DNA of 64,000 bases from Candidatus Anderseniibacteriota bacterium. GTDB lineage: Bacteria; Patescibacteriota; Andersenbacteria; UBA10190. The position numbers and the translations under genes are program-made. Positions 222 through 62,659 of the stretch are shown one piece after another. The notes under the pieces were generated by a model that saw only the letters and a list, made by a program, of their open reading frames with translations, was not told where the DNA came from and did not search any database. The stretch is from the NCBI GenBank assembly GCA_040876835.1, contig JBBDOX010000011.1:1452-65451 (forward strand). The letters are read 5' to 3'. The first letter of the stretch is position 1. Each line of letters opens with the position of its first letter.

Positions 222-1112
222 TCACCAGGAGAAACTTTTCCCGGTGAGCCTCACGTAGGCTTCAACGTATCGCTGACGAGTACGGTTGATGACCGTCTTC
301 GGCAGGGTTGGAGGGTCGCTGTTTTTGTCCCACTTCGCAGTCTTTGTCAGCCAGTCGCGAACGAACTGCTTGTCCAGGGAGACTTGCTCACGGCCAGGGG
401 TATACTTCTGGGTGTCCCAGAAGCGTGAGCTATCCGGCGTGAGCACTTCATCGATCAGATAGACGATCTCGCCGATCTGGCCGAATTCGAACTTGGTGTC
501 AGCGATGATAATGCCCTGAGCGAGAGCATACTCAGCGCCCTTCCTGTAAGCGTCCACGCTCAGATCTCGCAGGAGGTAGGCCAGGCTGTCTCCGACAAGC
601 TGGCGCATACGCTCGAACGAGATGTTTTCGTCGTGGCCATCGTCCACTTTCGTGGCGGGGGTGAAGATTGGCTCGTCGAGCTGGTCGCTTTCCTTCAGTC
701 CCGGAGGAAGCTTCAGCCCGCACACCGTGCCGGACTGCTGGTACTCTTTCCAGCCTGAGCCGGAGAGGTAGCCACGAACGACACATTCGATGGGGATGAC
801 CTGGGTCTTCCTGACCACCATGCTGCGTCCGTGCAGCACATCGAAGTCGGTGCCGCTGGGAAGCGGGAGATCCTTCGGATTCGTGCTGATCAGGTGGTTG
901 GGGATCGGGAGACGCTTGAACCACATCTCGCTCAACCCCGTGAGCACACGCCCCTTGTCGGGGATGCCGTCAGGAAGCACCCAATCATAGGCGCTGATCC
1001 GGTCGCTGGCAACGAACAGCAGCTTGTCGCCGAAGTCGTAAATGTCGCGAACCTTGCCGCGACGGACAGGGATTCCAGGAACATTGCTTTGCAAAAGAGC
1101 TTGCTGCTTCAT
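222..1112 (-). CDS. purC: Phosphoribosylaminoimidazole-succinocarboxamide synthase (SAICAR synthetase)
   Basis: 296 aa. N-terminal GKVRDIY motif plus extended PurC-like length and conservation (…ISAYDWVLPDGIPDKGRVLT…). Visibly G+C-richer than neighbouring genes. Confidence 0.85.
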   Translation of the reverse strand: MKQQALLQSNVPGIPVRRGKVRDIYDFGDKLLFVASDRISAYDWVLPDGIPDKGRVLTGLSEMWFKRLPIPNHLISTNPKDLPLPSGTDFDVLHGRSMVVRKTQVIPIECVVRGYLSGSGWKEYQQSGTVCGLKLPPGLKESDQLDEPIFTPATKVDDGHDENISFERMRQLVGDSLAYLLRDLSVDAYRKGAEYALAQGIIIADTKFEFGQIGEIVYLIDEVLTPDSSRFWDTQKYTPGREQVSLDKQFVRDWLTKTAKWDKNSDPPTLPKTVINRTRQRYVEAYVRLTGKSFSW

Positions 1113-12680: not shown

Positions 12681-13030
12681 TTGTGCTGAATATCATACAG
12701 TGGTGATACTGCAGACGTCACAGGTAGCAAAAGTGTCCACGCGGTGGGCTCTTAGCTTTACTCGTAGTTCTTTATCTGGGAGGAATCTGGTTGAGGTTTT
12801 TGGAAAACTAGGTAGGCAGCCGCTTACTTCCTGGATCGAATATGTTGTATATGAAATACCGCTGTGGTTATATTCGGCGGTATTTCATGTATATGGCTTG
12901 CAAAACAAGGCCTGGTCCTGCAAAATCACTTCGTACCTCTTATACATACGGAGGGTGTTCCTTACTTTGAAACAAGGCCCAGTAATGGGCCTTTATTCCC
13001 GGGTAGCTCAATGGCAGAGCAACTGGCTGT

Positions 13031-13578
13031 GACATGTTCGTATTTAGTCTGCTAAAATATAAAGTATGATTGAAAAGCGAACATATGCCGACCGTCGCGA
13101 GCAAAACATCAAGGCTGTAGCTAAGCGTCGAAGAAAGCTAAAAGCAATGGTGATTGAGTATAAAGGCGGTAAGTGTATGATTTGTGGCTATACTCGTAGT
13201 GCGGCAGCATTAGAGCTTCATCATGTTAATCCCAAGGAAAAATCATTTAGTCTCTCCAAAAGAGGGCTGACGAGATCTTGGGAAAAGACAAAAGCTGAAG
13301 CTGATAAGTGTGTGCTAATCTGCTCGAATTGTCACAAAGAAGTACATGCAGGTGTAACGCAGCTTCCGCAAGTAATTGCGGTCGAATAACTGGGTGAATT
13401 CGGGGAAGCCTTAACTGGTAATCCCGAGCCAAGCCGAAGAGGGTATATAAGTTCTTCGGAAGGTGTAGAGACTAGGAAGTGAGTCCCAACAATATTCTTC
13501 CAGATAGCGCCCAGTACCCTTATATGTTGTAAGGGTGATGATATAGTCCATGCCGGCACGAAAGTGTTGGGTTACATG
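13031..13578 (+). mobile_element. Group I intron (548 nt) in the tRNA-Asn anticodon loop, carrying an HNH homing endonuclease ORF
   Basis: The 5' exon ends in U and the intron ends in G (omega-G). An R-like element GAGACUA (13468-13474) and an S-like element GAUAUAGUCC (13540-13549) can pair as P7 (GACUA/UAGUC). ORF 13066-13389 sits in a peripheral loop. Confidence 0.7.
13066..13389 (+). CDS. HNH homing endonuclease (intron-encoded)
   Basis: 107 aa. CMICG…LELHHVNPKEK…CSNCHKEVH is an HNH/zinc-finger nuclease motif. Basic N-terminus. Confidence 0.75.
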   Translation: MIEKRTYADRREQNIKAVAKRRRKLKAMVIEYKGGKCMICGYTRSAAALELHHVNPKEKSFSLSKRGLTRSWEKTKAEADKCVLICSNCHKEVHAGVTQLPQVIAVE

Positions 13579-13674
13579 TAACCAGTAGGTTGTCGGTTCG
13601 AGTCCGACCCCGGGAGCAAGTTTGTACGTTCGGTTATTATGGTGTTTACGTATTGATTGCTATAAATTGATTGC

Positions 13675-34407: not shown

Positions 34408-35619
34408 TTAGCTTCTGAGAACAGTTTCCAAGTTGTCGAGACCACGCTCGATGTGTTCCAAGTCCTGAGTGAATGTGATCCGCAACACGTTGTCGGTTGG
34501 GTTGTAGCCGTAACCTGACGCTGGCATCATCAGCGTCTTTCGCTCCATCAACTTGCCGGCGAGTGTCAGGTCGTCACCGTCGAAATCGACCTTGAAGGCA
34601 ACGTTGACGCAGCCGCCACGCGGGTAGACCTCTACTACCTCGGGGATGACTGACAGTCTCTCCCGAACGTAGTACTCCTTCTCCCGGAGCGAGGCTTCAA
34701 CCTCAAGGAGAAAGTCCGGCTTCGGCCCATCGAGATCGAGGAGCGCTTGAAGTATCACATCCAGGCTCTTCGGGGCGTTGGCGATGAAACTGCTCATGCG
34801 ACCGATGATGCCGCTACGCCGGGTTCCGAGCAGCTCCGGGGAGGTGATAACCCATCCCACCCTGTGCTGAGCCAGTCCGAATCGTTTGGCAGGACTGTCC
34901 AGTCGAACGACGTGAGGCTGCTCGATCCATTGTTCGTAACCCAGACAGGCCCCCTCGGACGTGAAGCAGTTCTGCATCTCGTCGATGATGATGACGATAT
35001 CCTCCTGAGCCGCTCGCTCGATAACCTCTCTGAGCAAGTTGGCAGGGAAGAAAACGCCGTCCGGGTTGTTGGGGTTTGAGATGATGATGGTGCGAGGCTT
35101 GTCGCTGAACACCTCCTCCATTTCGTTCATGGTCTGCGGCACGTGATGGTGTCCGCTCAGGACGTAATCATACGCGATCACTCGCATTCCGTAATCGCGA
35201 ATGGGGCGCTGGAACATCTGATAGAGAGTGGGGCCGATCACGGCAATGTGTTCGCGACGATACTGCCCAGACTCAAGTCCCATCGCTTCCTCGATGGAGA
35301 GGACGAGACCAGCCCAGGCCCCCGGCACAATGGCGACATTCGCAACGGTGTAGGCAGTATTGTGTTTGCGATTTTCCACTTCCGCGATCTTCTCGCGCAG
35401 TCGAAAGGCTCCAGCCTCGTGGCCGTAAGCCCGTGCCGTCGGCAGCAAATGTTTTTCCATGAATTCCTTCGGGAAGATATCCCAGGGTCCCCGGAAGAAA
35501 ACGCCGGTATCCAGCAGATCTTGGGGCTCCTTGCCCTCGAACATGTCGTGGTAGCTGCAGAACCTGTCGATTGCCTGAATGATATCCGCAGAGTTCCTAC
35601 GAAAATACGTTCGCTGCAT
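34408..35619 (-). CDS. PLP-dependent aminotransferase, class I/II fold
   Basis: 403 aa. NPNNPDG and SPAKRFGLAQHRVGW (Schiff-base Lys). G+C-rich. Confidence 0.72.
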   Translation of the reverse strand: MQRTYFRRNSADIIQAIDRFCSYHDMFEGKEPQDLLDTGVFFRGPWDIFPKEFMEKHLLPTARAYGHEAGAFRLREKIAEVENRKHNTAYTVANVAIVPGAWAGLVLSIEEAMGLESGQYRREHIAVIGPTLYQMFQRPIRDYGMRVIAYDYVLSGHHHVPQTMNEMEEVFSDKPRTIIISNPNNPDGVFFPANLLREVIERAAQEDIVIIIDEMQNCFTSEGACLGYEQWIEQPHVVRLDSPAKRFGLAQHRVGWVITSPELLGTRRSGIIGRMSSFIANAPKSLDVILQALLDLDGPKPDFLLEVEASLREKEYYVRERLSVIPEVVEVYPRGGCVNVAFKVDFDGDDLTLAGKLMERKTLMMPASGYGYNPTDNVLRITFTQDLEHIERGLDNLETVLRS

Positions 35620-39346: not shown

Positions 39347-40144
39347 TTACAGATCGCTGCCCGCGCCTGTTTTCAGATACGTTATAATCCCATCTGCAAT
39401 TCCTTGAATAGACAGCTCCGGCTGACTGACAATAATTTTTCTGTCCTGGGGGCTGGTCAAAAATCCGGTTTCAATAATGACAGCCGGAGTCATGGGATGG
39501 ATAGCGTGCTCGTAGCGACGCCAGTTGAAAGCGTAGTACCCGCTCATGCGTCGGCTGATGCTCGGGTCCCGGTTTAAACCTGTGGCCTGCTCATAGGTTT
39601 TGTATAAAGATTCTTCAAGATAGATTGACCGGCCGGAGTAATCCCGGCGGGGACTGGCAATTTTGAAGCCGGATACCGAGGAGTCTATATTGCCATCGGC
39701 GTGGATGGACACAAATGCATCCGCTATATACCCGGGCGGGACGGTAGCTGGCAGCAGATCCGCTTCAATACCTGCCTCCTTAAGTAATGCTGCTACCTGC
39801 TCTGCGATCTTTAAGACCACGTCTCGCTCATTTGTTCCGCCACCGACGGCTCCACCTCCATTTTTTCGCAGGCCCCCCAGCTCTTCCGGCACTTCATCAT
39901 TACGCCAGTGGCCGGCCTGGATACCAACTCGCAGGGGTCCGGGCGGCCGCTGCCATTTTTCAAGTTCGGAGAGGGTATAACGATCATTGGCTCCTAAAGT
40001 CTCGTCAGGTGAAACTTCTTCAAAGCCAACTTCTTCGGTTGTATATGAGAAAGTAGAGGATACGTCCCGACCGGGCTGTACCAGGTACCAGATAGTGGAA
40101 CCCGCGACTATCAAAAGAGCCAAAAGAAGCAAAAAATACTTCAT
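39347..40144 (-). CDS. N-acetylmuramoyl-L-alanine amidase (Amidase_3) with N-terminal anchor
   Basis: ATG at 40144 gives MKYFLLLLALLIVAGS…. …ISIHADGN… and downstream Zn-ligand context. The ORF-track N-terminal extension is rejected. Confidence 0.7.
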   Translation of the reverse strand: MKYFLLLLALLIVAGSTIWYLVQPGRDVSSTFSYTTEEVGFEEVSPDETLGANDRYTLSELEKWQRPPGPLRVGIQAGHWRNDEVPEELGGLRKNGGGAVGGGTNERDVVLKIAEQVAALLKEAGIEADLLPATVPPGYIADAFVSIHADGNIDSSVSGFKIASPRRDYSGRSIYLEESLYKTYEQATGLNRDPSISRRMSGYYAFNWRRYEHAIHPMTPAVIIETGFLTSPQDRKIIVSQPELSIQGIADGIITYLKTGAGSDL

Positions 40145-40240
40145 ATCACTGAGCGTTGAGAGCTTACGGATATATGTTATGGTTAGAATGCAGATGCCGC
40201 AATCCTTATACAAAAAACCGCCGAGTCTTATTCCCGCTAG

Positions 40241-41791
40241 ATGTTCACCGCTCAGGAGTGCGTTCGGTATCGCAACCTTGCACGTTATATGAACCCGATC
40301 ACATCCTGGCTGCAAAACATCACCATGTACCGGTTGATGTTGTACTTTATGCTGGTCCTGCTTTTGGCTGCGATCCTGCTGAGTGTTGTGGGAGTTTTGC
40401 CTTACAGTCCGTGGAGCATCGCGCTGCAGACAATACTGTTTCCTGGGCTCTGCTGGGGAGTTAACAAAGTAATTTCTCGTAGCTTAAAGCTGCAGTCGAA
40501 CATCGAGTCTTCGCTTATTACCGGTCTGATCCTGTCAGCGATTGTGGGCCCTTTGGTGTTGTCGCGCGACTGGCTGATTTTTCTGGTCATAACCGCTACT
40601 GCAATCGGGTCAAAGTACCTGCTCGCGATCAGACGCAGCCACATCTTTAATCCGGCTGCTTTCGGAGTGGTGGTATCCGCGTTGGTGCTTGGATATCCGG
40701 CTAGCTGGTGGATTGGGAGTGAGGCGTTGTTGCCGGTTATTCTCATCGGAGGCGTGCTGATGATAATAAAGATCAGACGCTGGCATCTCATTGTCAGTTT
40801 TCTGGGGGTCTACCTGGGATTAAGGGCACTTGATGCTTTATTTATTGACGGCCGAAGCCTCACACAGGCGGGCGTCTTGCTGCAAACTCTGGCCACATCT
40901 CCATCAATTCTTTTCTTCTGCTTTGTCATGCTGATCGAACCGCTTACCGCTCCCCAGGTGCGGTCACGCCGTGTGGCGTTTGGTTCGTTTGTAGGAGTAA
41001 CGCTATTTGCGTTTCAGCAATTCCTGGCCTCTGTGCCTTACTCGCTGGAGTTAACGCTCCTGATCGGAAATATCTTTACCCGGATTGTTAATCCTGATTT
41101 CCGGCAGGCATTTGTCTTAAGGCAAAAGGAGCTATTTTCTTCCGCGATCGGCAGTTTCTGGTTCGAACCTACCCGACGATTTACTTTTAAGCCGGGGCAG
41201 TTTCTGGAATATACATTTGCGCACCCTCACCCTGACACTCGCGGCGTTCGAAGGTACTTCAGTATTGCGTCTTCACCGACCGAAGAGAAAGTGCTCTTAA
41301 CTGCCCGGTTTTCTGAGCCCGGCAGCACCTTCAAACAGGCACTGCGGAAGATGGGAGAGGGGGACGAGATTGTCGCCTCGAAAGTGGCGGGTGACTTCGT
41401 GCTGCCGTCAGATACGGCGCAGAAGCTCGTCTTTATTGCCGGCGGCATCGGTATTACCCCGTTTCGCAGCATCGTAAAATATTTGCTTGATACTAATCAA
41501 TCCCGCGATCTTGTATTGCTGTACGGCTCGCGCGAGGAAGGGGATCTGATATTTCGCGATGTTTTTGAGGAGGCCCGCAAAATATTCAACATGAATACTG
41601 TGTATGTAGTGTCCCGGGTGATTGATGAGCAGGTTATACGGAAAGAGATACCGGATTTTACTGAGCGCCTGTTTTATATCTCCGGACCGGAAGGCATGGT
41701 GCAGGGCTTGAGCAAGATGTTAGTTGGTATGGGGGTTTCGCGCCGGCAGATCAGGCGGGATTACTTTCCCGGGTACGCAGAGCAGGGATAG
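40241..41791 (+). CDS. Fusion protein: N-terminal polytopic membrane domain + C-terminal ferredoxin-NADP-reductase-like FAD/NAD(P)-binding module
   Basis: 516 aa. C-terminal RRYFSIASSP (RxYS FAD motif) and GGIGITPF (NAD motif). The membrane domain family is unassigned, with weak RnfD/NqrB-like flavour. Alternative in-frame ATG starts at 40289 and 40325. Confidence 0.6.
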   Translation: MFTAQECVRYRNLARYMNPITSWLQNITMYRLMLYFMLVLLLAAILLSVVGVLPYSPWSIALQTILFPGLCWGVNKVISRSLKLQSNIESSLITGLILSAIVGPLVLSRDWLIFLVITATAIGSKYLLAIRRSHIFNPAAFGVVVSALVLGYPASWWIGSEALLPVILIGGVLMIIKIRRWHLIVSFLGVYLGLRALDALFIDGRSLTQAGVLLQTLATSPSILFFCFVMLIEPLTAPQVRSRRVAFGSFVGVTLFAFQQFLASVPYSLELTLLIGNIFTRIVNPDFRQAFVLRQKELFSSAIGSFWFEPTRRFTFKPGQFLEYTFAHPHPDTRGVRRYFSIASSPTEEKVLLTARFSEPGSTFKQALRKMGEGDEIVASKVAGDFVLPSDTAQKLVFIAGGIGITPFRSIVKYLLDTNQSRDLVLLYGSREEGDLIFRDVFEEARKIFNMNTVYVVSRVIDEQVIRKEIPDFTERLFYISGPEGMVQGLSKMLVGMGVSRRQIRRDYFPGYAEQG

Positions 41792-48149: not shown

Positions 48150-49187
48150 ATGCTTTCTGCTTACGCTGACAGTGGCGTCGACATCGACGCTGGTGAGCTG
48201 TTCGTGGCCATGCTGAAGGAGCGGATTGCTGCCGCATGGCCGGAAGTCGGCAAGGAGATTGGGGGGTTTGCCGGGAGCGTGCAGTTCCCGGCGCTCACGA
48301 ACAAGGTCCGCTGTGGTGCGGACGGATCGGGCACGATGGCAATCGTGGCAGCCCTGTGTGACCAGTACGAGGTCATTGGTACTGCCGCTGCCGCCATGTC
48401 GCTGGTGGACACGTACGTGGGCGGAGCACTCCCAGTGGGACTGCTCGACGTCATCGACGTGGGCAAGCTCGTTCCGGAAAAGCACATCCGCATCATTGAC
48501 GGCCTCATTCAGGGATGCAAGCTGGCTGGTTCTGCCAGGCTGATTGGCGGGGAAACTGCTGAGTTGCCCGACATGTTCCGGCACAGCTGGATGGTCAACG
48601 TCAACACAGCAGCGATCGGCTTTCCCGATCCCTGCCTTCTGACCGGAAACATTCGCCCGGGCATGACGGTGTGGGGTTGGCGGTCTGAGGGCCCGGCTTC
48701 CAATGGCTTCTCGCTGATCCGTCGAGCGTTGCAGCTCAAGGGTCGACCTTCGCTGGCCAGAAAGCGGCTGACGCGGTACTCACCGGACCTGCGCGGCTCG
48801 CTGCAGGAGGCGCTGCTGGTTCCGGTGCCCATCTGGATCAACCAGATTGAGATCCAGCGCAGTGTCGGTACGCGATTTGCCGGACACGCCCACATTACGG
48901 GTGGCGGACTGGTCGATAACATCCCGCGCATCCTGCCGGAGAGTTGCAAGGTCGTTCTGGATCGCTCAACGTGGGAGCGGTCGGCGATCTTTCCCATCAT
49001 TCAGCGCGAGGGAAATGTTTCCGCGGAAGAGATGGATCGCGTCTTCAACCAGGGGCTCATGGTCGTCTCCGTCCTGGATTCGTCCGGCAAAGAGCCGACC
49101 ACGCCCAACATTCTTCCCATCGGCACTGTCGAAAAGAGAGGAGAGGGAGAGCGGCAAGTGCAGTTCACGGGAGTCTTCAACAACTGA
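48150..49187 (+). CDS. purM: Phosphoribosylformylglycinamidine cyclo-ligase (AIR synthase)
   Basis: 345 aa. N-terminal YADSGVDIDAG plus a PurM-like domain organisation. Strong RBS GAGAGGAGAGG. Markedly G+C-rich. Confidence 0.82.
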   Translation: MLSAYADSGVDIDAGELFVAMLKERIAAAWPEVGKEIGGFAGSVQFPALTNKVRCGADGSGTMAIVAALCDQYEVIGTAAAAMSLVDTYVGGALPVGLLDVIDVGKLVPEKHIRIIDGLIQGCKLAGSARLIGGETAELPDMFRHSWMVNVNTAAIGFPDPCLLTGNIRPGMTVWGWRSEGPASNGFSLIRRALQLKGRPSLARKRLTRYSPDLRGSLQEALLVPVPIWINQIEIQRSVGTRFAGHAHITGGGLVDNIPRILPESCKVVLDRSTWERSAIFPIIQREGNVSAEEMDRVFNQGLMVVSVLDSSGKEPTTPNILPIGTVEKRGEGERQVQFTGVFNN

Positions 49188-58359: not shown

Positions 58360-58522
58360 ATCCGTAAAGGTACCAGTATTTTCTATTGTGAACAGGCTTC
58401 TTTCTCCCTGACAGAACAATGTTGACAGGCATGATTTTTGTCGGCATGTATGGATGCGCACCAGGAGCAATGTGTCAGGGACTGATTGGTGGATGTTGTA
58501 CTTTGTTACAAGGAACAGATCG

Positions 58523-59107
58523 ATGCCCAAAGCAAAGACCTCTCGGACTACGGCTATTCGTAGCCTGAAAGATGCAGCGAGAGTCGTCGGGAAGATCGGG
58601 CAGCTCAAGCGTAATCTGGAGCGTGTGACGGTCCAGATGAATGAGAAGATCGAGAAGATCAAGCAGCCGTACACGGAGAAGGCTGGCGGCTACATCGCCG
58701 AGCTGGAGCCGCTGATGGAAGCCATGTTCCGTTACGCTCAGGGCAATCGTCCTCAGCTGACCGACAATGGTGAGCGACAAACCGTCAAGCTGCCGACGGG
58801 ATCCTTTTACTGGCGGAAGACGGGTAAGTCCGTTCAGTTCACGGGGAGTGACGATGAGCTTGTGGATTTGCTCAAGGCACTCGGACTTTCGGACTGGGTT
58901 CGGGTCGTGGAGGAACCGAACCGGGAACGCATGTTGCAGGAAGAGGAGAAAGCCCAGGCGGTGGCCGGCGTGACGATCGAACAGCGCGAAGTGTTTTACG
59001 TCAAGCCGGCAGCAAGCATGGCTGCCGTGACGGTCACTCCCGAGGGCGATCATCTGAAGATCGTGCCAAAGGATCCCCGGAAGCAGAAGGATAAGAAATC
59101 TGCCTAA
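58523..59107 (+). CDS. gam: Bacteriophage Mu Gam-like host-nuclease inhibitor (Ku-like DNA-end-binding) protein
   Basis: ATG 58523 after an AAGGAAC RBS. Alignable by eye with Mu Gam: …VKLPTGSFYWRKTGKSVQFTGSDDELVDLLKALGLSDWVRVVEEPNRE…AVAGVTIEQREVFYVKP…. G+C-rich. Confidence 0.7.
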   Translation: MPKAKTSRTTAIRSLKDAARVVGKIGQLKRNLERVTVQMNEKIEKIKQPYTEKAGGYIAELEPLMEAMFRYAQGNRPQLTDNGERQTVKLPTGSFYWRKTGKSVQFTGSDDELVDLLKALGLSDWVRVVEEPNRERMLQEEEKAQAVAGVTIEQREVFYVKPAASMAAVTVTPEGDHLKIVPKDPRKQKDKKSA

Positions 59108-59213
59108 AGGGCTGATCCCACCCCACATTCAAGGACGAGTGTGGTTTTTTCATGCGTAACTGTGTGATGCAGATGATATTGACTGTGTCCGGTAATATTG
59201 AGACGCTTCATGT

Positions 59214-59408: not shown

Positions 59409-59535
59409 CTGGGAGAAGATACTCCCGGCTAGACAAAACGACTGAAATGCCGCAGTATTGACCTAGCTTAGAGGGAATTAGCGCAGATGTATAAGCTTGG
59501 CCCCATTAGATGGGGTCGTTACCTTTTCAATAGTC

Positions 59536-61347
59536 ATGAAACAGGATATTCGAAATGTTGCCATTATCGCTCACGTGGACCACGGGAAAACTACTCTGGT
59601 GGATGCTTTACTGCGTCAGTCAGAATCTTTTCGCACCAAAGAAGATGCCGCGGCGAACCTTATTATGGATTCCAATGAACTAGAGCGGGAGCGCGGGATT
59701 ACCATCTTTTCAAAGAATGCTGCCATTCATTACAAGGGCTACAAGATTAATATTATTGACACTCCCGGACACGCTGACTTTGGCGGGGAAGTAGAGCGCA
59801 TCATGAGCATGGCCAGTGGAGTTTTGCTGCTGGTTGATGCCAAAGATGGGCCGATGCCTCAGACAAAATTCGTATTGAAAAAGGCTCTGGAAGCTGGTCA
59901 TCGCGTTATTGTTGTTATCAACAAAATTGATGTGCCACAGGCTCGCGTTGACTGGGTGCTTGATCAGACATTCGGACTCTTCATTGATCTGGGTGCAACG
60001 GATGAGCAGGCTGACTTCCCGGTACTCTACGCTTCGGCTATTCAGGGCAAGGCCGGCATGGCTCCTGACCTGGCCGTTATGGAGAACATCACGCCGGTGT
60101 TTGATGCCATCATCAAACACATCTCAGCGCCCACGGTGAATGATGCGCCCATGCAGATGCTGGCTGTGAATGTTATTTACGATGACTACAAAGGACAGAT
60201 TGCAATTGGGCCACTATTGAGCGGCACCCTGACAAAAAATCAGCCCGTCATGCGGATTCAGGCTGATGGCACACAGGTAGCTGCCCGTATCGCTTCAGTT
60301 ATGACATTCGAGGGATTAGGCCGGGTAGAAGTAGCCGAAGCCCAGGCCGGAGACATCGTGGCGGTAGCCGGTATTGAAGGCGTAAAAATTGGTGAGACGA
60401 TTGCAGATCATGCGGATCCCCGACAACTACCGCTTATCGCTATTGATGAACCAACTGTAAAGATGAAATTCTCAGTTAATACTTCACCCTTGGCTGGAAC
60501 TGAAGGAGATTTCTCAACGGCTCGACATCTGAAAAATCGTCTCCAGCGTGAGTTGCTCAGTGACGTGGCGTTGAAGATAGAGACGGATGAAGGATCAGAT
60601 TCAGCCTTCACTATTCTAGGCCGTGGCGAGTTGCACCTATCAATCCTTATTGAGAAGATGCTGCGGGAAGGTTATGAATTCCAGGTTGGCAAACCTCACG
60701 TTATTTTCAAAGACGATGAACTGGGCAAAAAGCTTGAACCGTTTGAAGATATATATATTGAATGTCCGGAGCAGCATGCCGGAATTGTGATCGAGAAGAT
60801 GGGCAAGCGCAAAGGGGAGATGAAGGATATGAAAGTAGACCAGGGTATTACGAAAATGCATTTCCTGGTATCAACCCGCGGATTAATCGGATACCGGGCG
60901 GAGTTTTTAACTGATACCCGCGGTGAAGGAATAATGAATGCTATTTTCCATGGGTACCTGCCGTATCTGGGAGATCTTGGATTGGAGTATCACGGCTCAC
61001 TGGTGGCTCACGAGCCAGGGGTTACTACACTCTACGGACTGCTGCAGGCCCAGGGGCGCGGGCAGCTTTTTGTCGGCCCCGGGATCCAGGTATATGAGGG
61101 AATGATTGTCGGACAGAACGCCCGGGTGGAAGATATTGATGTAAATGTCTGTAAGGAAAAGAAACTGACAAATATTCGCTCAGCGGGCGAAGGGGTATCC
61201 GAACATTTTCACGCTCCGAAAAAACTTACGCTGGAAGAGGCGATTGAATACCTTGGCGAAGACGAATTGCTGGAAGTAACACCCAAAAATTTGCGTCTGC
61301 GTAAAATGTATTTGAGTAAAAACGAGCGCAAGCGAGGCAAGAAATAA
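59536..61347 (+). CDS. typA: Translational GTPase TypA/BipA
   Basis: ATG 59536. [23 protein letters not shown]…[12 protein letters not shown]…NKID… with EF-G-like domains. 603 aa. Confidence 0.92.
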
Positions 61348-61384: not shown

Positions 61385-62659
61385 CTATAGGCTTGCCATG
61401 TGAATCAGGTATTCGAAGATGTCGCGGGACAGAAAAGGATTGGATACCTTCTCCCGGTATTCTTCGAAGACACAGACACGTACGGCGGCGTAGGTTTCCA
61501 GCTCTTCCTCGAGACTGGCGTAGTGACGTGGACGGACTTCTCGGAGAGTGCCGATAATGCCCGACCCGTTGTAGATCCCCACATCCGGCAGGTGGAATCG
61601 ATGAGGGGATACGACGGGGGTGATCAGTACAGCTTCGGGAGGGATGCCGCACAGGTTGGCAACGGCCCGTTCGTAGACTGCAGCACTCTCGCGCCGATGC
61701 AAGTGATCGAACGCATTCAGCTGCTCAAGCGGAAGCCGAAAGGTTGCGATCGACTTGCCTTCGGCATTGTCAAGCGGCACGACCTCGTTCGGAATGAGCC
61801 GGACTGCCACCTTGGGCAACTTCCGCTTATCCAGCCGGGCGAACAGCTCCCGGGTGGTTTTGTCGCTGGAGCTGAGCAGGAACGAATCCAGTTCGCAGTC
61901 GGTGAACTGAAACAGCTGCTCCTCTTTCAAGTTCCGCGGATCCAGCAGCATGGCGCGAGATACGATCTGCTGCAGGAAACACTGTGCGATGGCGCAGGCT
62001 TTCCGGAAGTAAACTCGGCTGTGCATCGCGGCGTAGTCCCGTTGGACCTGGATGACCTCGGCAATGATTTTCTGGTCGATGACGAGCTGCTGATCAATGA
62101 AGTAGATGTGGTTCAGCAGGTCTCCGGCTCTAAATCCCACTGCCTCGTGGGTGTTACGACCGTCCCGTTTCAGGTAGTCCATCTTGTCGGTGCCCAGCGG
62201 GCGGTGACTGACGCAGGCTGACAGCGGGTCCTTCCGCAGAAACAGAGAGCGGATTGCTGCCGGATTACCACCACAGGCGGTAATCTCCTTCTTGAGTTTT
62301 TTCAGAAGCAGGAGGCCGTGAGCGTTGTGGTCCAGTCGGCAGGCTCCTTCGATGGCGTGCGAGTAGGGACCATGACCAATGTCATGCAGAAGTCCGTACA
62401 GAGCGATATTCCACCCTTCTTCAGGCGAAATGATGCCGTCGCTGATCCAGCGGGCGATGCGCTCCAGAGTCATGGAGAAAGTGCCCAAAGCGTGCTCGAA
62501 ACGAGTGTGCTGAGCACAGGGGAAAGTCAGAAAACTGATACCAAGCTGTTTGCGCCGGCGCAGTCTCTGAAATACGCGGGTGTCGATGATGCGCTGAATG
62601 GGCGCGATGTCCAGGTCGTGCAGTCCGGGCAGGGCAATAGTTCTGCGGGTAAGCTTCAT
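61385..62659 (-). CDS. HD-domain phosphohydrolase, dGTP triphosphohydrolase-like
   Basis: 424 aa. …FEHALGTFSMT…LLHDIGHGPYSHAIEG… is the HD motif of dNTP triphosphohydrolases. G+C-rich. Confidence 0.78.
   Translation of the reverse strand: MKLTRRTIALPGLHDLDIAPIQRIIDTRVFQRLRRRKQLGISFLTFPCAQHTRFEHALGTFSMTLERIARWISDGIISPEEGWNIALYGLLHDIGHGPYSHAIEGACRLDHNAHGLLLLKKLKKEITACGGNPAAIRSLFLRKDPLSACVSHRPLGTDKMDYLKRDGRNTHEAVGFRAGDLLNHIYFIDQQLVIDQKIIAEVIQVQRDYAAMHSRVYFRKACAIAQCFLQQIVSRAMLLDPRNLKEEQLFQFTDCELDSFLLSSSDKTTRELFARLDKRKLPKVAVRLIPNEVVPLDNAEGKSIATFRLPLEQLNAFDHLHRRESAAVYERAVANLCGIPPEAVLITPVVSPHRFHLPDVGIYNGSGIIGTLREVRPRHYASLEEELETYAAVRVCVFEEYREKVSNPFLSRDIFEYLIHMASL

What the first reader, a model, noticed from the sequence alone, without database searches (positions are those of the whole stretch)
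58523..59107. Orphan phage Mu Gam-like (Ku-like DNA-end-binding, RecBCD-inhibitor family) gene with no other phage genes nearby
The protein aligns by eye with Mu Gam across its core (…KLPTGSFYWRKT…AVAGVTIEQREVFYVKP…). It has a good RBS and a downstream terminator. It is G+C-rich relative to the flanks. No integrase, capsid or other prophage gene occurs within at least 5 kb on either side. Domesticated Gam/Ku-like proteins can act in host double-strand-break protection or as counter-defence remnants.
Basis: partly seen in the sequence, partly recalled or inferred. Interest (0 to 1): 0.58.

Follow-up and report, generated by a model that had tools for sequence, protein, structure and literature searches.

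The report
Stand-alone Gam DNA-end binder in CPR bacterium
A small bacterium of the Candidate Phyla Radiation carries, among ordinary housekeeping genes, an intact lone copy of the phage Mu Gam protein that caps broken DNA ends. It belongs to a group of similar lone copies in related bacteria that carry an extra lysine-rich tail and look recruited for the cell's own use.

Summary
Window 58523-59107 (+) encodes a 194-aa, full-length Gam protein (Pfam PF07352, 101 bits, E 7e-29). It has an AAGGA ribosome-binding site, its own terminator, and higher G+C than its surroundings (GC3 0.71 against 0.50). No phage gene was found among the 53 ORFs scanned across the 64-kb window.

The contig is a Candidatus Andersenbacteria (CPR) genome assembled from a metagenome. 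The protein has no relative above 41% identity among 1.84 billion cluster representatives.

Its nearest relatives are nearly all from CPR genomes and are also lone genes among housekeeping genes. In four loci they sit directly upstream of recG. Gam relatives in Proteobacteria, Opitutaceae and 80 viral contigs all lie in Mu-like transposition modules.

The lone copies carry a 16-37-residue lysine-rich C-terminal tail that Mu-context Gams mostly lack. One subclade of them is under purifying selection (dN/dS 0.07-0.22). Atypical G+C in many loci points to horizontal spread.

Best reading: a host-resident, Ku-like protein that binds double-stranded DNA ends and protects or repairs them. This is inferred from homology and context, not shown.

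It is a variant of a known family and moderately interesting.

The parts
58523..59107 (+). Gam-family coding sequence, 194 aa plus stop (MPKAKTSRTT...KDKKSA)
   Evidence: Searches give the ORF. PF07352 scores 101 bits, E 7.3e-29, over the full profile. PHROG 491 scores 1.8e-33. 2p2u scores 1.9e-8 as a sequence and 4e-20 as a profile. All 11 columns invariant across 24 family members, including E. coli Mu-type Gam, are retained.
59009..59104 (+). C-terminal extension, residues 163-194 (AASMAAVTVTPEGDHLKIVPKDPRKQKDKKSA). It has 7 Lys/Arg and is predicted disordered. It is the mark of the stand-alone subfamily.
   Evidence: Tail after the conserved Pro162: 16-37 aa with a median of 5 K/R in 23 stand-alone, mostly CPR Gams, against 5-12 aa with a median of 0 K/R in 20 Gams of the Mu/proteobacterial comparison set. 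In 80 viral-contig Gams the tail is 4-22 aa, mostly with 0-1 K/R. pLDDT falls below 62 from about residue 165.
58510..58514 (+). Shine-Dalgarno-like AAGGA, 8 nt upstream of the ATG
   Evidence: Read directly from the sequence.
58408..58435 (+). Weak sigma-70-like promoter match (CTGACA-16-CATGAT) in the 169-bp divergent intergenic region between the GerM-like gene and Gam
   Evidence: It matches 9 of 12 positions, and the count of such sites is no higher than in shuffled sequence, so this is only a candidate.
59123..59150 (+). Intrinsic-terminator-like hairpin (8-bp stem, 6-nt loop) plus a T6 run, 16 nt after the stop. It implies a monocistronic unit.
   Evidence: The fold is -14.1 kcal/mol with z -1.6 against shuffles.
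58472..58522 (+). Upstream in-frame extension used in the public annotation (GTG start, 211 aa). Probably not translated.
   Evidence: P0001 is 211 aa. The N-termini of homologues align with the M at 58523.

Best explanation
This is an intact, expressed-looking, single-gene unit that encodes a Gam-family (Ku-like) protein. It sits in the chromosome of a Candidatus Andersenbacteria (CPR/Patescibacteria) bacterium.

By homology, the protein should form a dimer that binds the ends of linear double-stranded DNA. Bound ends are shielded from exonucleases of the RecBCD/AddAB kind. As reported for Mu Gam, it may also hold ends for joining by the cell's NAD-dependent ligase. The lysine-rich, disordered C-terminal tail probably adds non-specific DNA contacts or recruits a partner, as the basic tail of bacterial Ku does.

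The gene is not part of a prophage. It belongs to a subfamily of stand-alone, tail-bearing Gam genes. These are spread through CPR genomes, kept under purifying selection, exchanged horizontally, and linked to recG in some lineages. I therefore read it as a phage-derived gene recruited for the cell's own handling of DNA ends, that is, double-strand-break or collapsed-fork protection and repair.

Shown here: family membership, orphan context, subfamily features, selection in a related subclade, and gene neighbourhoods. Inferred: dimerisation, DNA-end binding, nuclease protection, role of the tail, and benefit to the host.
For: The organism is named, where NCBI labels both Gam and TypA as Candidatus Andersenbacteria.

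Orphan status: only cellular Pfam families appear across the window, only Gam matches Mu-like phages, and there is no PADLOC hit.

Relatives are stand-alone as well:
- P0015 lies in another Andersenbacteria genome on a 410-kb contig, near NusG, L11, L1 and GatB.
- P0271 lies between LepA/DivIC and PheS/PheT/GyrB.
- P0027 lies next to pilin and ABC transporter genes.
- P0274 lies next to rpS13 and rpS11.
- P0003 lies next to rpL7/L12, L10 and L1.
- The best-matching loci of the genome scan are Saccharibacteria, Portnoy-, Magasanik-, Pacei-, Uhr-, Andersenbacteria and unclassified Patescibacteria, plus three MAGs with non-CPR or unspecific labels.

Positive control: in the same scan, ten loci from Proteobacteria and Opitutaceae show 7-24 hits to Mu-like genes such as MuA, MuB and portal, and four short ones show 3-5. 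The stand-alone loci show Gam only. All 80 best viral-contig relatives sit in Mu-like contexts.

The basic C-terminal tail separates the two groups. It is present in 102 of the 143 nearest cluster representatives that could be measured.

Purifying selection: dN/dS is 0.07-0.22 among members of one CPR subclade.

Link to repair: recG lies directly downstream of Gam in L018, L023, L037 and L125. Between L125 and L018, Gam is 44% identical and RecG 41%, so the two have diverged together. RadA is nearby in L018 and L023.

Vertical inheritance in one lineage: in the MurJ-LepA-DivIC-Gam block shared by L008 and L041, Gam is 40% identical and LepA 56%.

Mechanistic background: Mu Gam as a Ku homologue that protects ends from RecBCD and can mediate end joining is summarised in PMC8987985. 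Its use as a probe for double-stranded DNA ends is in PMC3809393.
Against: No experiment or expression data exist for this gene.

The gene is compositionally foreign: its GC3 lies 2.5 sd above the window mean. It has no relative above 41% identity. So it may be a recent arrival that has not proved useful to this host.

It is absent within 7 kb of TypA in the three closest genomes available. Gene order there is not conserved either, so this is not a clean empty-site comparison.

Within one CPR subclade, Gam is 84-88% identical between genomes whose adjacent RecG is only 40-46% identical. Its G+C also stays at 0.51-0.53 whatever the host G+C. That pattern fits a mobile gene as well as it fits a host gene.

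The split between stand-alone and Mu-context Gams in the neighbour-joining tree has only 38% exact bootstrap support.

The structure model gave no significant match to solved structures, not even to 2p2u.

The rest of the genome was not available. The presence of RecBCD/AddAB, LigA, Ku or LigD, and of prophages on other contigs, is therefore unknown.
Confidence: 0.55

Rival explanations
1. Conflict gene rather than repair gene. On this reading the lone Gam is a horizontally mobile accessory gene that acts in phage-host or element-host conflict. It could cap the ends of invading linear phage DNA as a defence. Alternatively, it could be an anti-nuclease cargo gene left by, or moving with, an unrecognised CPR mobile element.
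For: G+C is atypical here and in 8 of 15 stand-alone loci, with z up to 5.5. Gam is 77-95% identical between CPR lineages whose neighbouring genes are far more diverged. Its position in genomes is patchy and non-syntenic. In L006 a truncated PglX/MmeI-like methyltransferase lies directly downstream. In L124 T4SS coupling-protein-like genes lie upstream. Phage end-binding proteins are known players in RecBCD/Gabija conflicts (PMC12407980).
Against: No mobile-element gene (integrase, transposase, relaxase) lies next to it in the window. There are no flanking repeats. There is no PADLOC match. None of the 80 best viral contigs carries the stand-alone, tailed type. Recurrent recG adjacency and co-divergence with recG point to repair.
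Confidence: 0.25
2. Inert remnant. On this reading the gene is the last surviving ORF of a Mu-like or other prophage that decayed in place. It has no function for the cell and is awaiting loss.
For: Gam is normally a gene of transposable phages. Its G+C is foreign. The gene is unique to this genome among known sequences.
Against: The ORF is intact, with all family-invariant residues, a ribosome-binding site and a terminator. Not one other phage-like fragment was found in the window, even by tblastx. Small CPR genomes would not be expected to keep junk for long (general knowledge, not tested here). More than 20 relatives are likewise alone, one subclade is under purifying selection, and they share a derived tail. 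That would not be expected from independent decay events.
Confidence: 0.13
3. Artefact. On this reading the gene is a chance ORF, or a phage or foreign fragment joined to a CPR contig by mis-assembly.
For: The genome is assembled from a metagenome, and the gene's G+C differs from its flanks.
Against: E-values of 1e-29 to 1e-33 exclude a chance ORF. The G+C-rich segment is exactly one gene with proper signals, set inside a 66.8-kb contig of typical CPR genes. The same stand-alone arrangement recurs in many independent assemblies.
Confidence: 0.02

Closest known systems
Bacteriophage Mu Gam and Gam of Mu-like transposable phages (SuMu, RR1-B, D3112/B3-like Pseudomonas phages); Pfam PF07352, PHROG 491
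   Same: It is the same protein family over the full length, 30-35% identical, with all invariant residues kept. It has the same size of core: a long N-terminal helix followed by a small alpha/beta domain. The presumed activity is the same: binding double-stranded DNA ends and blocking exonucleases.
   Different: It is not in a transposable-phage early region: there is no MuA or MuB, no repressor and no structural genes. It carries a 32-residue lysine-rich C-terminal extension that most Mu-context Gams lack. It sits in a CPR bacterial chromosome as a monocistronic unit.
Putative Gam with a solved structure, PDB 2p2u
   Same: It is the only solved homologue. It aligns over residues 12-161 (E 1.9e-8 for the sequence, 4e-20 for the profile).
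   Different: Identity is low. 2p2u is 171 aa and has no basic tail. The predicted monomer model did not retrieve it with Foldseek, so fold identity rests on sequence homology only.
Bacterial Ku (PF02735), the end-binding partner of LigD in non-homologous end joining
   Same: Gam is regarded as a Ku homologue (PMC8987985). Both are chromosomal, stand-alone end-binding proteins. A lysine-rich C-terminal tail is a known feature of many bacterial Ku proteins; this last point is from my own knowledge and was not tested here.
   Different: There is no sequence match to the Ku Pfam model. No LigD or other ATP-dependent ligase gene was found among the window ORFs scanned. The protein is much shorter than Ku.
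Stand-alone Gam genes of other CPR genomes (for example P0015 in Andersenbacteria GCA_964507875; loci in Saccharibacteria, Uhrbacteria, Magasanikbacteria and Paceibacteria)
   Same: They have the same architecture (core plus basic tail), the same lone position among housekeeping genes, and often raised G+C.
   Different: They are only 29-42% identical to the window protein. There is no shared synteny except an HD/HD_assoc_2 gene near Gam in both Andersenbacteria genomes. The recG adjacency seen in four loci is absent here.

Membership tests
Phage_Mu_Gam family (PF07352) | Full-length match to the family profile above the curated threshold | tested here: met
   101.1 bits against a 28.3-bit cut-off, E 7.3e-29, profile positions 2-149 of 149. 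PHROG 491 at 1.8e-33.
Phage_Mu_Gam family (PF07352) | Conserved core residues of the family retained | tested here: met
   All 11 invariant columns are present (G26, G93, W97, R98, R127, E135, L138, G149, E156, F158, P162) in a 24-sequence alignment that includes E. coli, Shigella and Yersinia Mu-type Gams.
Phage_Mu_Gam family (PF07352) | Homology to a solved Gam structure and the same fold | tested here: inconclusive
Phage_Mu_Gam family (PF07352) | Binds linear double-stranded DNA ends as a dimer and inhibits RecBCD-type exonucleases | not testable with these tools
   This is a biochemical property, inferred from homology only.
Gam as a gene of a transposable (Mu-like) phage or prophage | Lies in an early region with MuA/MuB transposition genes and near phage structural genes | tested here: not met
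   Only Gam matches the SuMu and RR1-B proteomes in the window. Control loci from Proteobacteria and viral contigs give 2-24 such hits. Pfam scans show cellular genes only.
Bacterial Ku / NHEJ module | Match to the Ku core domain model (PF02735) | tested here: not met
   No Ku hit at E <= 1.
Bacterial Ku / NHEJ module | Genomic association with LigD or another ATP-dependent ligase | tested here: not met
   No ligase domain was found among the 53 window ORFs scanned. The rest of the genome was not available.
Stand-alone tailed Gam subfamily of CPR bacteria (proposed here) | C-terminal extension of at least 16 residues after the conserved Pro, enriched in Lys/Arg | tested here: met
   The window tail is 32 aa with 7 K/R. 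The subfamily range is 16-37 aa, against 5-12 aa in Mu-context Gams.
Stand-alone tailed Gam subfamily of CPR bacteria (proposed here) | Groups with stand-alone CPR sequences rather than with phage sequences in a phylogeny | tested here: inconclusive
   The neighbour-joining tree places it with P0002 and P0274 (58% bootstrap) inside the stand-alone set. The split from the Mu set has only 38% exact bootstrap support.
Stand-alone tailed Gam subfamily of CPR bacteria (proposed here) | Adjacent to recG | tested here: not met
   RecG follows Gam in L018, L023, L037 and L125. tblastn with RecG of L018 finds nothing in the window. This is a feature of some members, not a defining one.

The most novel reading that the evidence does not exclude
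CPR/Patescibacteria have domesticated phage Gam as their own minimal Ku. On this reading, a stand-alone dimeric end-binding protein with an added lysine-rich tail protects broken chromosome ends. It would work with RecG/RadA, or with the NAD-dependent ligase, to repair double-strand breaks or collapsed forks in these very small genomes, and it would spread between CPR lineages as a single useful gene. The window gene would be a divergent member of that system.
Probability: 0.3. Interest if true: 0.7.

Novelty: new variant of a known kind. Interest (0 to 1): 0.45.

Why it matters
Gam is mainly studied as a phage weapon against RecBCD and used as a laboratory probe for DNA breaks. That bacteria have recruited it is proposed mostly from copies inside defective prophages.

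Here the copies are truly free of phage context. They are widespread in one large, poorly understood bacterial radiation, marked by a shared added tail, under selection in one subclade, and sometimes paired with recG. If they act for the cell, they would be a clear case of phage-to-host recruitment of an end-binding protein. They would also give a handle on how ultra-small, uncultured bacteria deal with double-strand breaks. Finally, they would be a source of compact Ku-like proteins for break labelling or genome-editing tools.

If they are only passengers, the finding is a routine orphan phage gene.

Tried and rejected
**Locus and homologue searches**
- A locus search with the 30-sequence alignment A1 failed because it had no conserved stretch. 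The tighter alignment A2 worked.
- The word-indexed protein search with the single protein found only itself. The exhaustive search was needed.
- Look-up of the annotated 211-aa product found no record, so the 2.8 kb of contig outside the window could not be read.

**Synteny**
- Synteny anchored on TypA gave no clean empty site, because gene order around TypA differs in the closest genomes.
- I tested for a conserved HD-x-Gam block in Andersenbacteria. The HD genes are orthologous (44% identity). The intervening 202-aa gene of L006 has no counterpart in the window, and the orientation differs. I kept this only as a side note.

**Insertion scars**
- The search for flanking direct or inverted repeats gave only short imperfect matches of the kind expected by chance.

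**Structure**

**Phylogeny**
- The first bootstrap analysis used rooted clades and understated support. I redid it with bipartitions, and support was still only 38%.

**Defence and naming libraries**
- PADLOC and NCBIfam gave no hit for Gam.

**Literature**
- No paper on Gam in CPR/Patescibacteria was found.
- The primary papers on Gam as a Ku orthologue and on Gam-promoted end joining are not held. They are cited through the review PMC8987985.

**Rejected reading**
- The antisense ORF 58475-59128 (217 aa) is not a gene. It mirrors the Gam frame and shows 'conservation' only because the Gam DNA is conserved.

Full report
**1. What is at the coordinates**

- It matches Pfam PF07352 (Phage_Mu_Gam) over the whole profile: 101.1 bits against a 28.3-bit cut-off, E 7.3e-29.
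- It matches PHROG 491 'Mu Gam-like end protection' at 1.8e-33.
- It matches the solved putative Gam 2p2u at 1.9e-8, and at 4e-20 with a family profile.
- tblastn against 50,697 phage records finds 139 records, all below 60% identity. The best are Gam genes of SuMu, RR1-B and Pseudomonas Mu-like phages at about 35%.
- All 11 columns invariant in a 24-member alignment that includes E. coli Mu-type Gam are retained.

AAGGA lies 8 nt before the ATG. A hairpin plus T6 follows the stop. A weak promoter-like match lies in the 169-bp divergent intergenic region.

The public annotation starts 17 codons earlier (211 aa). Homologue N-termini support the ATG at 58523.

**2. Composition**

Gam has G+C 0.571 and GC3 0.708. 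The 68 candidate genes of the window average 0.478 +/- 0.048 and 0.502 +/- 0.084.

Four other genes share this composition: PurC, an aminotransferase, an AIRS-like gene and the HD gene at 61385-62659. No repeats flank the gene.

**3. Context**

The contig is from a Candidatus Andersenbacteria MAG and is 66,792 bp long. Pfam scans of 53 ORFs between 225 and 63729 give cellular families only:
- Replication, transcription and repair: primase, RpoD and Fpg.
- Biosynthesis and redox: PurC, glycosyltransferases and thioredoxins.
- Metal handling: a copper ATPase.
- Others: TspO, TauE, a DAO oxidoreductase and a methyltransferase.
- The immediate neighbours of Gam: a GerM/Gmad2 protein directly upstream on the other strand, then TypA and an HD/HD_assoc_2 protein downstream.

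tblastx of the window against two complete Mu-like phages hits only Gam. There is no PADLOC hit. The orphan claim therefore holds for the whole window. The rest of the genome could not be examined.

**4. Relatives**

The exhaustive search of 1.84 billion cluster representatives finds 1,069 relatives at E <= 1e-3. Apart from the protein itself, none is more than 41% identical.

The contexts of the nearest relatives changed the picture. All of these lie in cellular surroundings:
- P0015 is in another Andersenbacteria genome on a 410-kb contig with NusG, L11, L1 and GatB.
- P0271 lies between LepA/DivIC and PheS/PheT/GyrB.
- P0027 lies beside pilin and ABC genes.
- P0274 lies beside rpS13 and rpS11.
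- P0003 lies beside rpL7/L12, L10 and L1.
- P0005 lies 81 bp upstream of recG.

A scan of one genome per GTDB species returned 31 loci. The best matches are Saccharibacteria, Portnoy-, Magasanik-, Pacei-, Uhr- and Andersenbacteria and unclassified Patescibacteria, plus three MAGs with non-CPR or unspecific labels.

I compared every ORF of every locus with the proteomes of SuMu and RR1-B.
- Ten loci from Proteobacteria and Opitutaceae gave 7-24 hits to Mu-like genes (MuA, MuB, GemA, Mor, portal, terminase).
- Four short loci gave 3-5 hits.
- Three short loci from Alphaproteobacteria and Bacteroidetes, in which Gam lies at the contig edge, showed Gam only.
- All CPR loci and the window showed Gam only.

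All 80 best relatives among 2.9 million viral contigs lie in Mu-like contexts with 2-24 hits. None of them is of the stand-alone type.

**5. A shared derived feature**

I measured the tail after the conserved Pro162.
- The 23 stand-alone Gams continue for 16-37 residues with a median of 5 Lys/Arg. The window has 32 residues and 7 K/R.
- The 20 Gams of the Mu/proteobacterial comparison set stop after 5-12 acidic residues with a median of 0 K/R.
- Viral-contig Gams have 4-22 residues, mostly with 0-1 K/R. A small group has short basic tails of 15-22 residues.
- Of the 143 nearest cluster representatives that could be measured, 102 have tails of at least 16 residues.

The model predicts this tail to be disordered.

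A neighbour-joining tree separates the stand-alone set from the Mu set, but exact bootstrap support is only 38%. The window groups with P0002 and P0274 at 58%.

**6. Selection, descent and transfer**

Within one CPR subclade dN/dS is 0.07-0.22, so those genes are functional.

Two patterns coexist.

Vertical descent:
- The MurJ-LepA-DivIC-Gam block is shared by L008 and L041, with Gam at 40% and LepA at 56% identity.
- The Gam-recG pair is shared by L125 and L018, with Gam at 44% and RecG at 41% identity.

Horizontal spread:
- Gam is 84-88% identical among L018, L023 and L037, while the adjacent RecG is 40-46% and RadA 52% identical.
- Gam G+C stays at 0.51-0.53 in hosts of 0.37-0.47 G+C.
- GC3 z-scores reach 5.5, and exceed 2 in 8 of 15 stand-alone loci, including the window.

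The three closest TypA loci (79-80% identity) have no Gam within 7 kb, but gene order there is not conserved.

For the window gene, the most economical history is fairly recent acquisition of a single gene from a source of higher G+C.

**7. Mechanism**

Mu Gam is a Ku homologue that binds double-stranded DNA ends, protects them from RecBCD and can mediate end joining with the host ligase. This is summarised in PMC8987985, and its use as a break probe is in PMC3809393.

By homology, the window protein should be a dimeric end-capping protein. This is an inference.

The basic tail resembles the lysine-rich C-terminal extension of bacterial Ku, which contributes DNA binding and ligase recruitment. 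That comparison is from my own knowledge and is only a lead.

Recurrent recG adjacency, with radA nearby, links the subfamily to recombinational repair. That link is absent in the window itself.

**8. Structure**

**9. Verdict**

The gene itself is already annotated as a Gam family protein, so at gene level it is a member of a known family. I found no description in the searched literature of the pattern it belongs to: stand-alone, tail-bearing, selected Gam genes in CPR chromosomes, sometimes paired with recG.

I rate it a new variant of a known kind, with interest 0.45. Confidence is 0.55 that it serves the cell's own handling of DNA ends. The rivals are 0.25 for a conflict or mobile-cargo role, 0.13 for an inert remnant and 0.02 for an artefact.

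Noticed in passing
window 12998-13615 (+): A group I intron (Rfam RF00028, 73 bits, E 1e-16, at 13335-13570) seems to interrupt a tRNA gene. A tRNA-like 5' half (TCCCGGGTAGCTCAATGGCAGAGCAACTGG) sits at about 12998-13027. A 3' half (CCAGTAGGTTGTCGGTTCGAGTCCGACCCCGGGAGCA) sits just after the intron. The ORF 13066-13389 between them has HNH-like motifs and may be a homing endonuclease. ARAGORN found no tRNA with introns up to 400 nt allowed.
   Followed up: partly
window 222-1112, 34408-35619, 48150-49187, 61385-62659, 58523-59107: Five genes have GC3 of 0.70-0.75 against a window mean of 0.50: PurC, an aminotransferase, an AIRS-like protein, the HD/HD_assoc_2 protein and Gam. This looks like a set of compositionally foreign, possibly horizontally acquired genes.
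   Followed up: partly
window 61388-62659 (-); L006 7833-9089 (-): An HD/HD_assoc_2 protein with weak dGTPase-like N-terminal similarity lies 2.3 kb from Gam in the window. Its 44%-identical orthologue lies 0.9 kb from Gam in the other Andersenbacteria genome, in a different orientation. A third homologue is 8.4 kb from Gam in a Saccharibacteria locus (L015). This could be residual linkage or chance.
   Followed up: partly
L018 4510-6651, L023 5959-8046, L037 426-2366, L125 8690-10801: recG lies directly downstream of the stand-alone Gam in four loci, and radA lies 3.6-5 kb away in two of them. In three of these loci Gam is about twice as conserved as RecG (84-88% against 40-46% identity), which I cannot fully explain.
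   Followed up: yes
L006 10715-12253: Directly downstream of Gam in the other Andersenbacteria genome is a 512-aa protein that matches only the N-terminal part of PglX/MmeI-type BREX methyltransferases. It is probably a truncated restriction-modification or BREX gene.
   Followed up: partly
L005 6294-6884: In a relative with 79% TypA identity, the gene just upstream of TypA is a very small (196-aa) ATP-dependent DNA-ligase-like protein (DNA_ligase_A_M).
   Followed up: no
L008 12236-17401: The GyrB gene next to a stand-alone Gam locus is 1,721 aa long and carries two intein insertions, with Intein_splicing and LAGLIDADG domains.
   Followed up: no
window 59497-59535 and 59498-59518: The longest TypA ORF starts at TTG 59497 (616 aa), but the public protein is 603 aa. 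A terminator-like hairpin lies inside the extra 13 codons, so TypA probably starts at the ATG at 59536.
   Followed up: no
window 58475-59128 (-): A 217-aa antisense ORF mirrors the Gam gene. Similar antisense ORFs appear 'conserved' in other loci only because the Gam DNA is conserved. It is not a gene.
   Followed up: yes
window 39350-40315 (-): An N-acetylmuramoyl-L-alanine amidase (Amidase_3) is the only window gene of a type that phages also often carry. It stands among cellular genes 18 kb from Gam and has no phage neighbours.
   Followed up: partly
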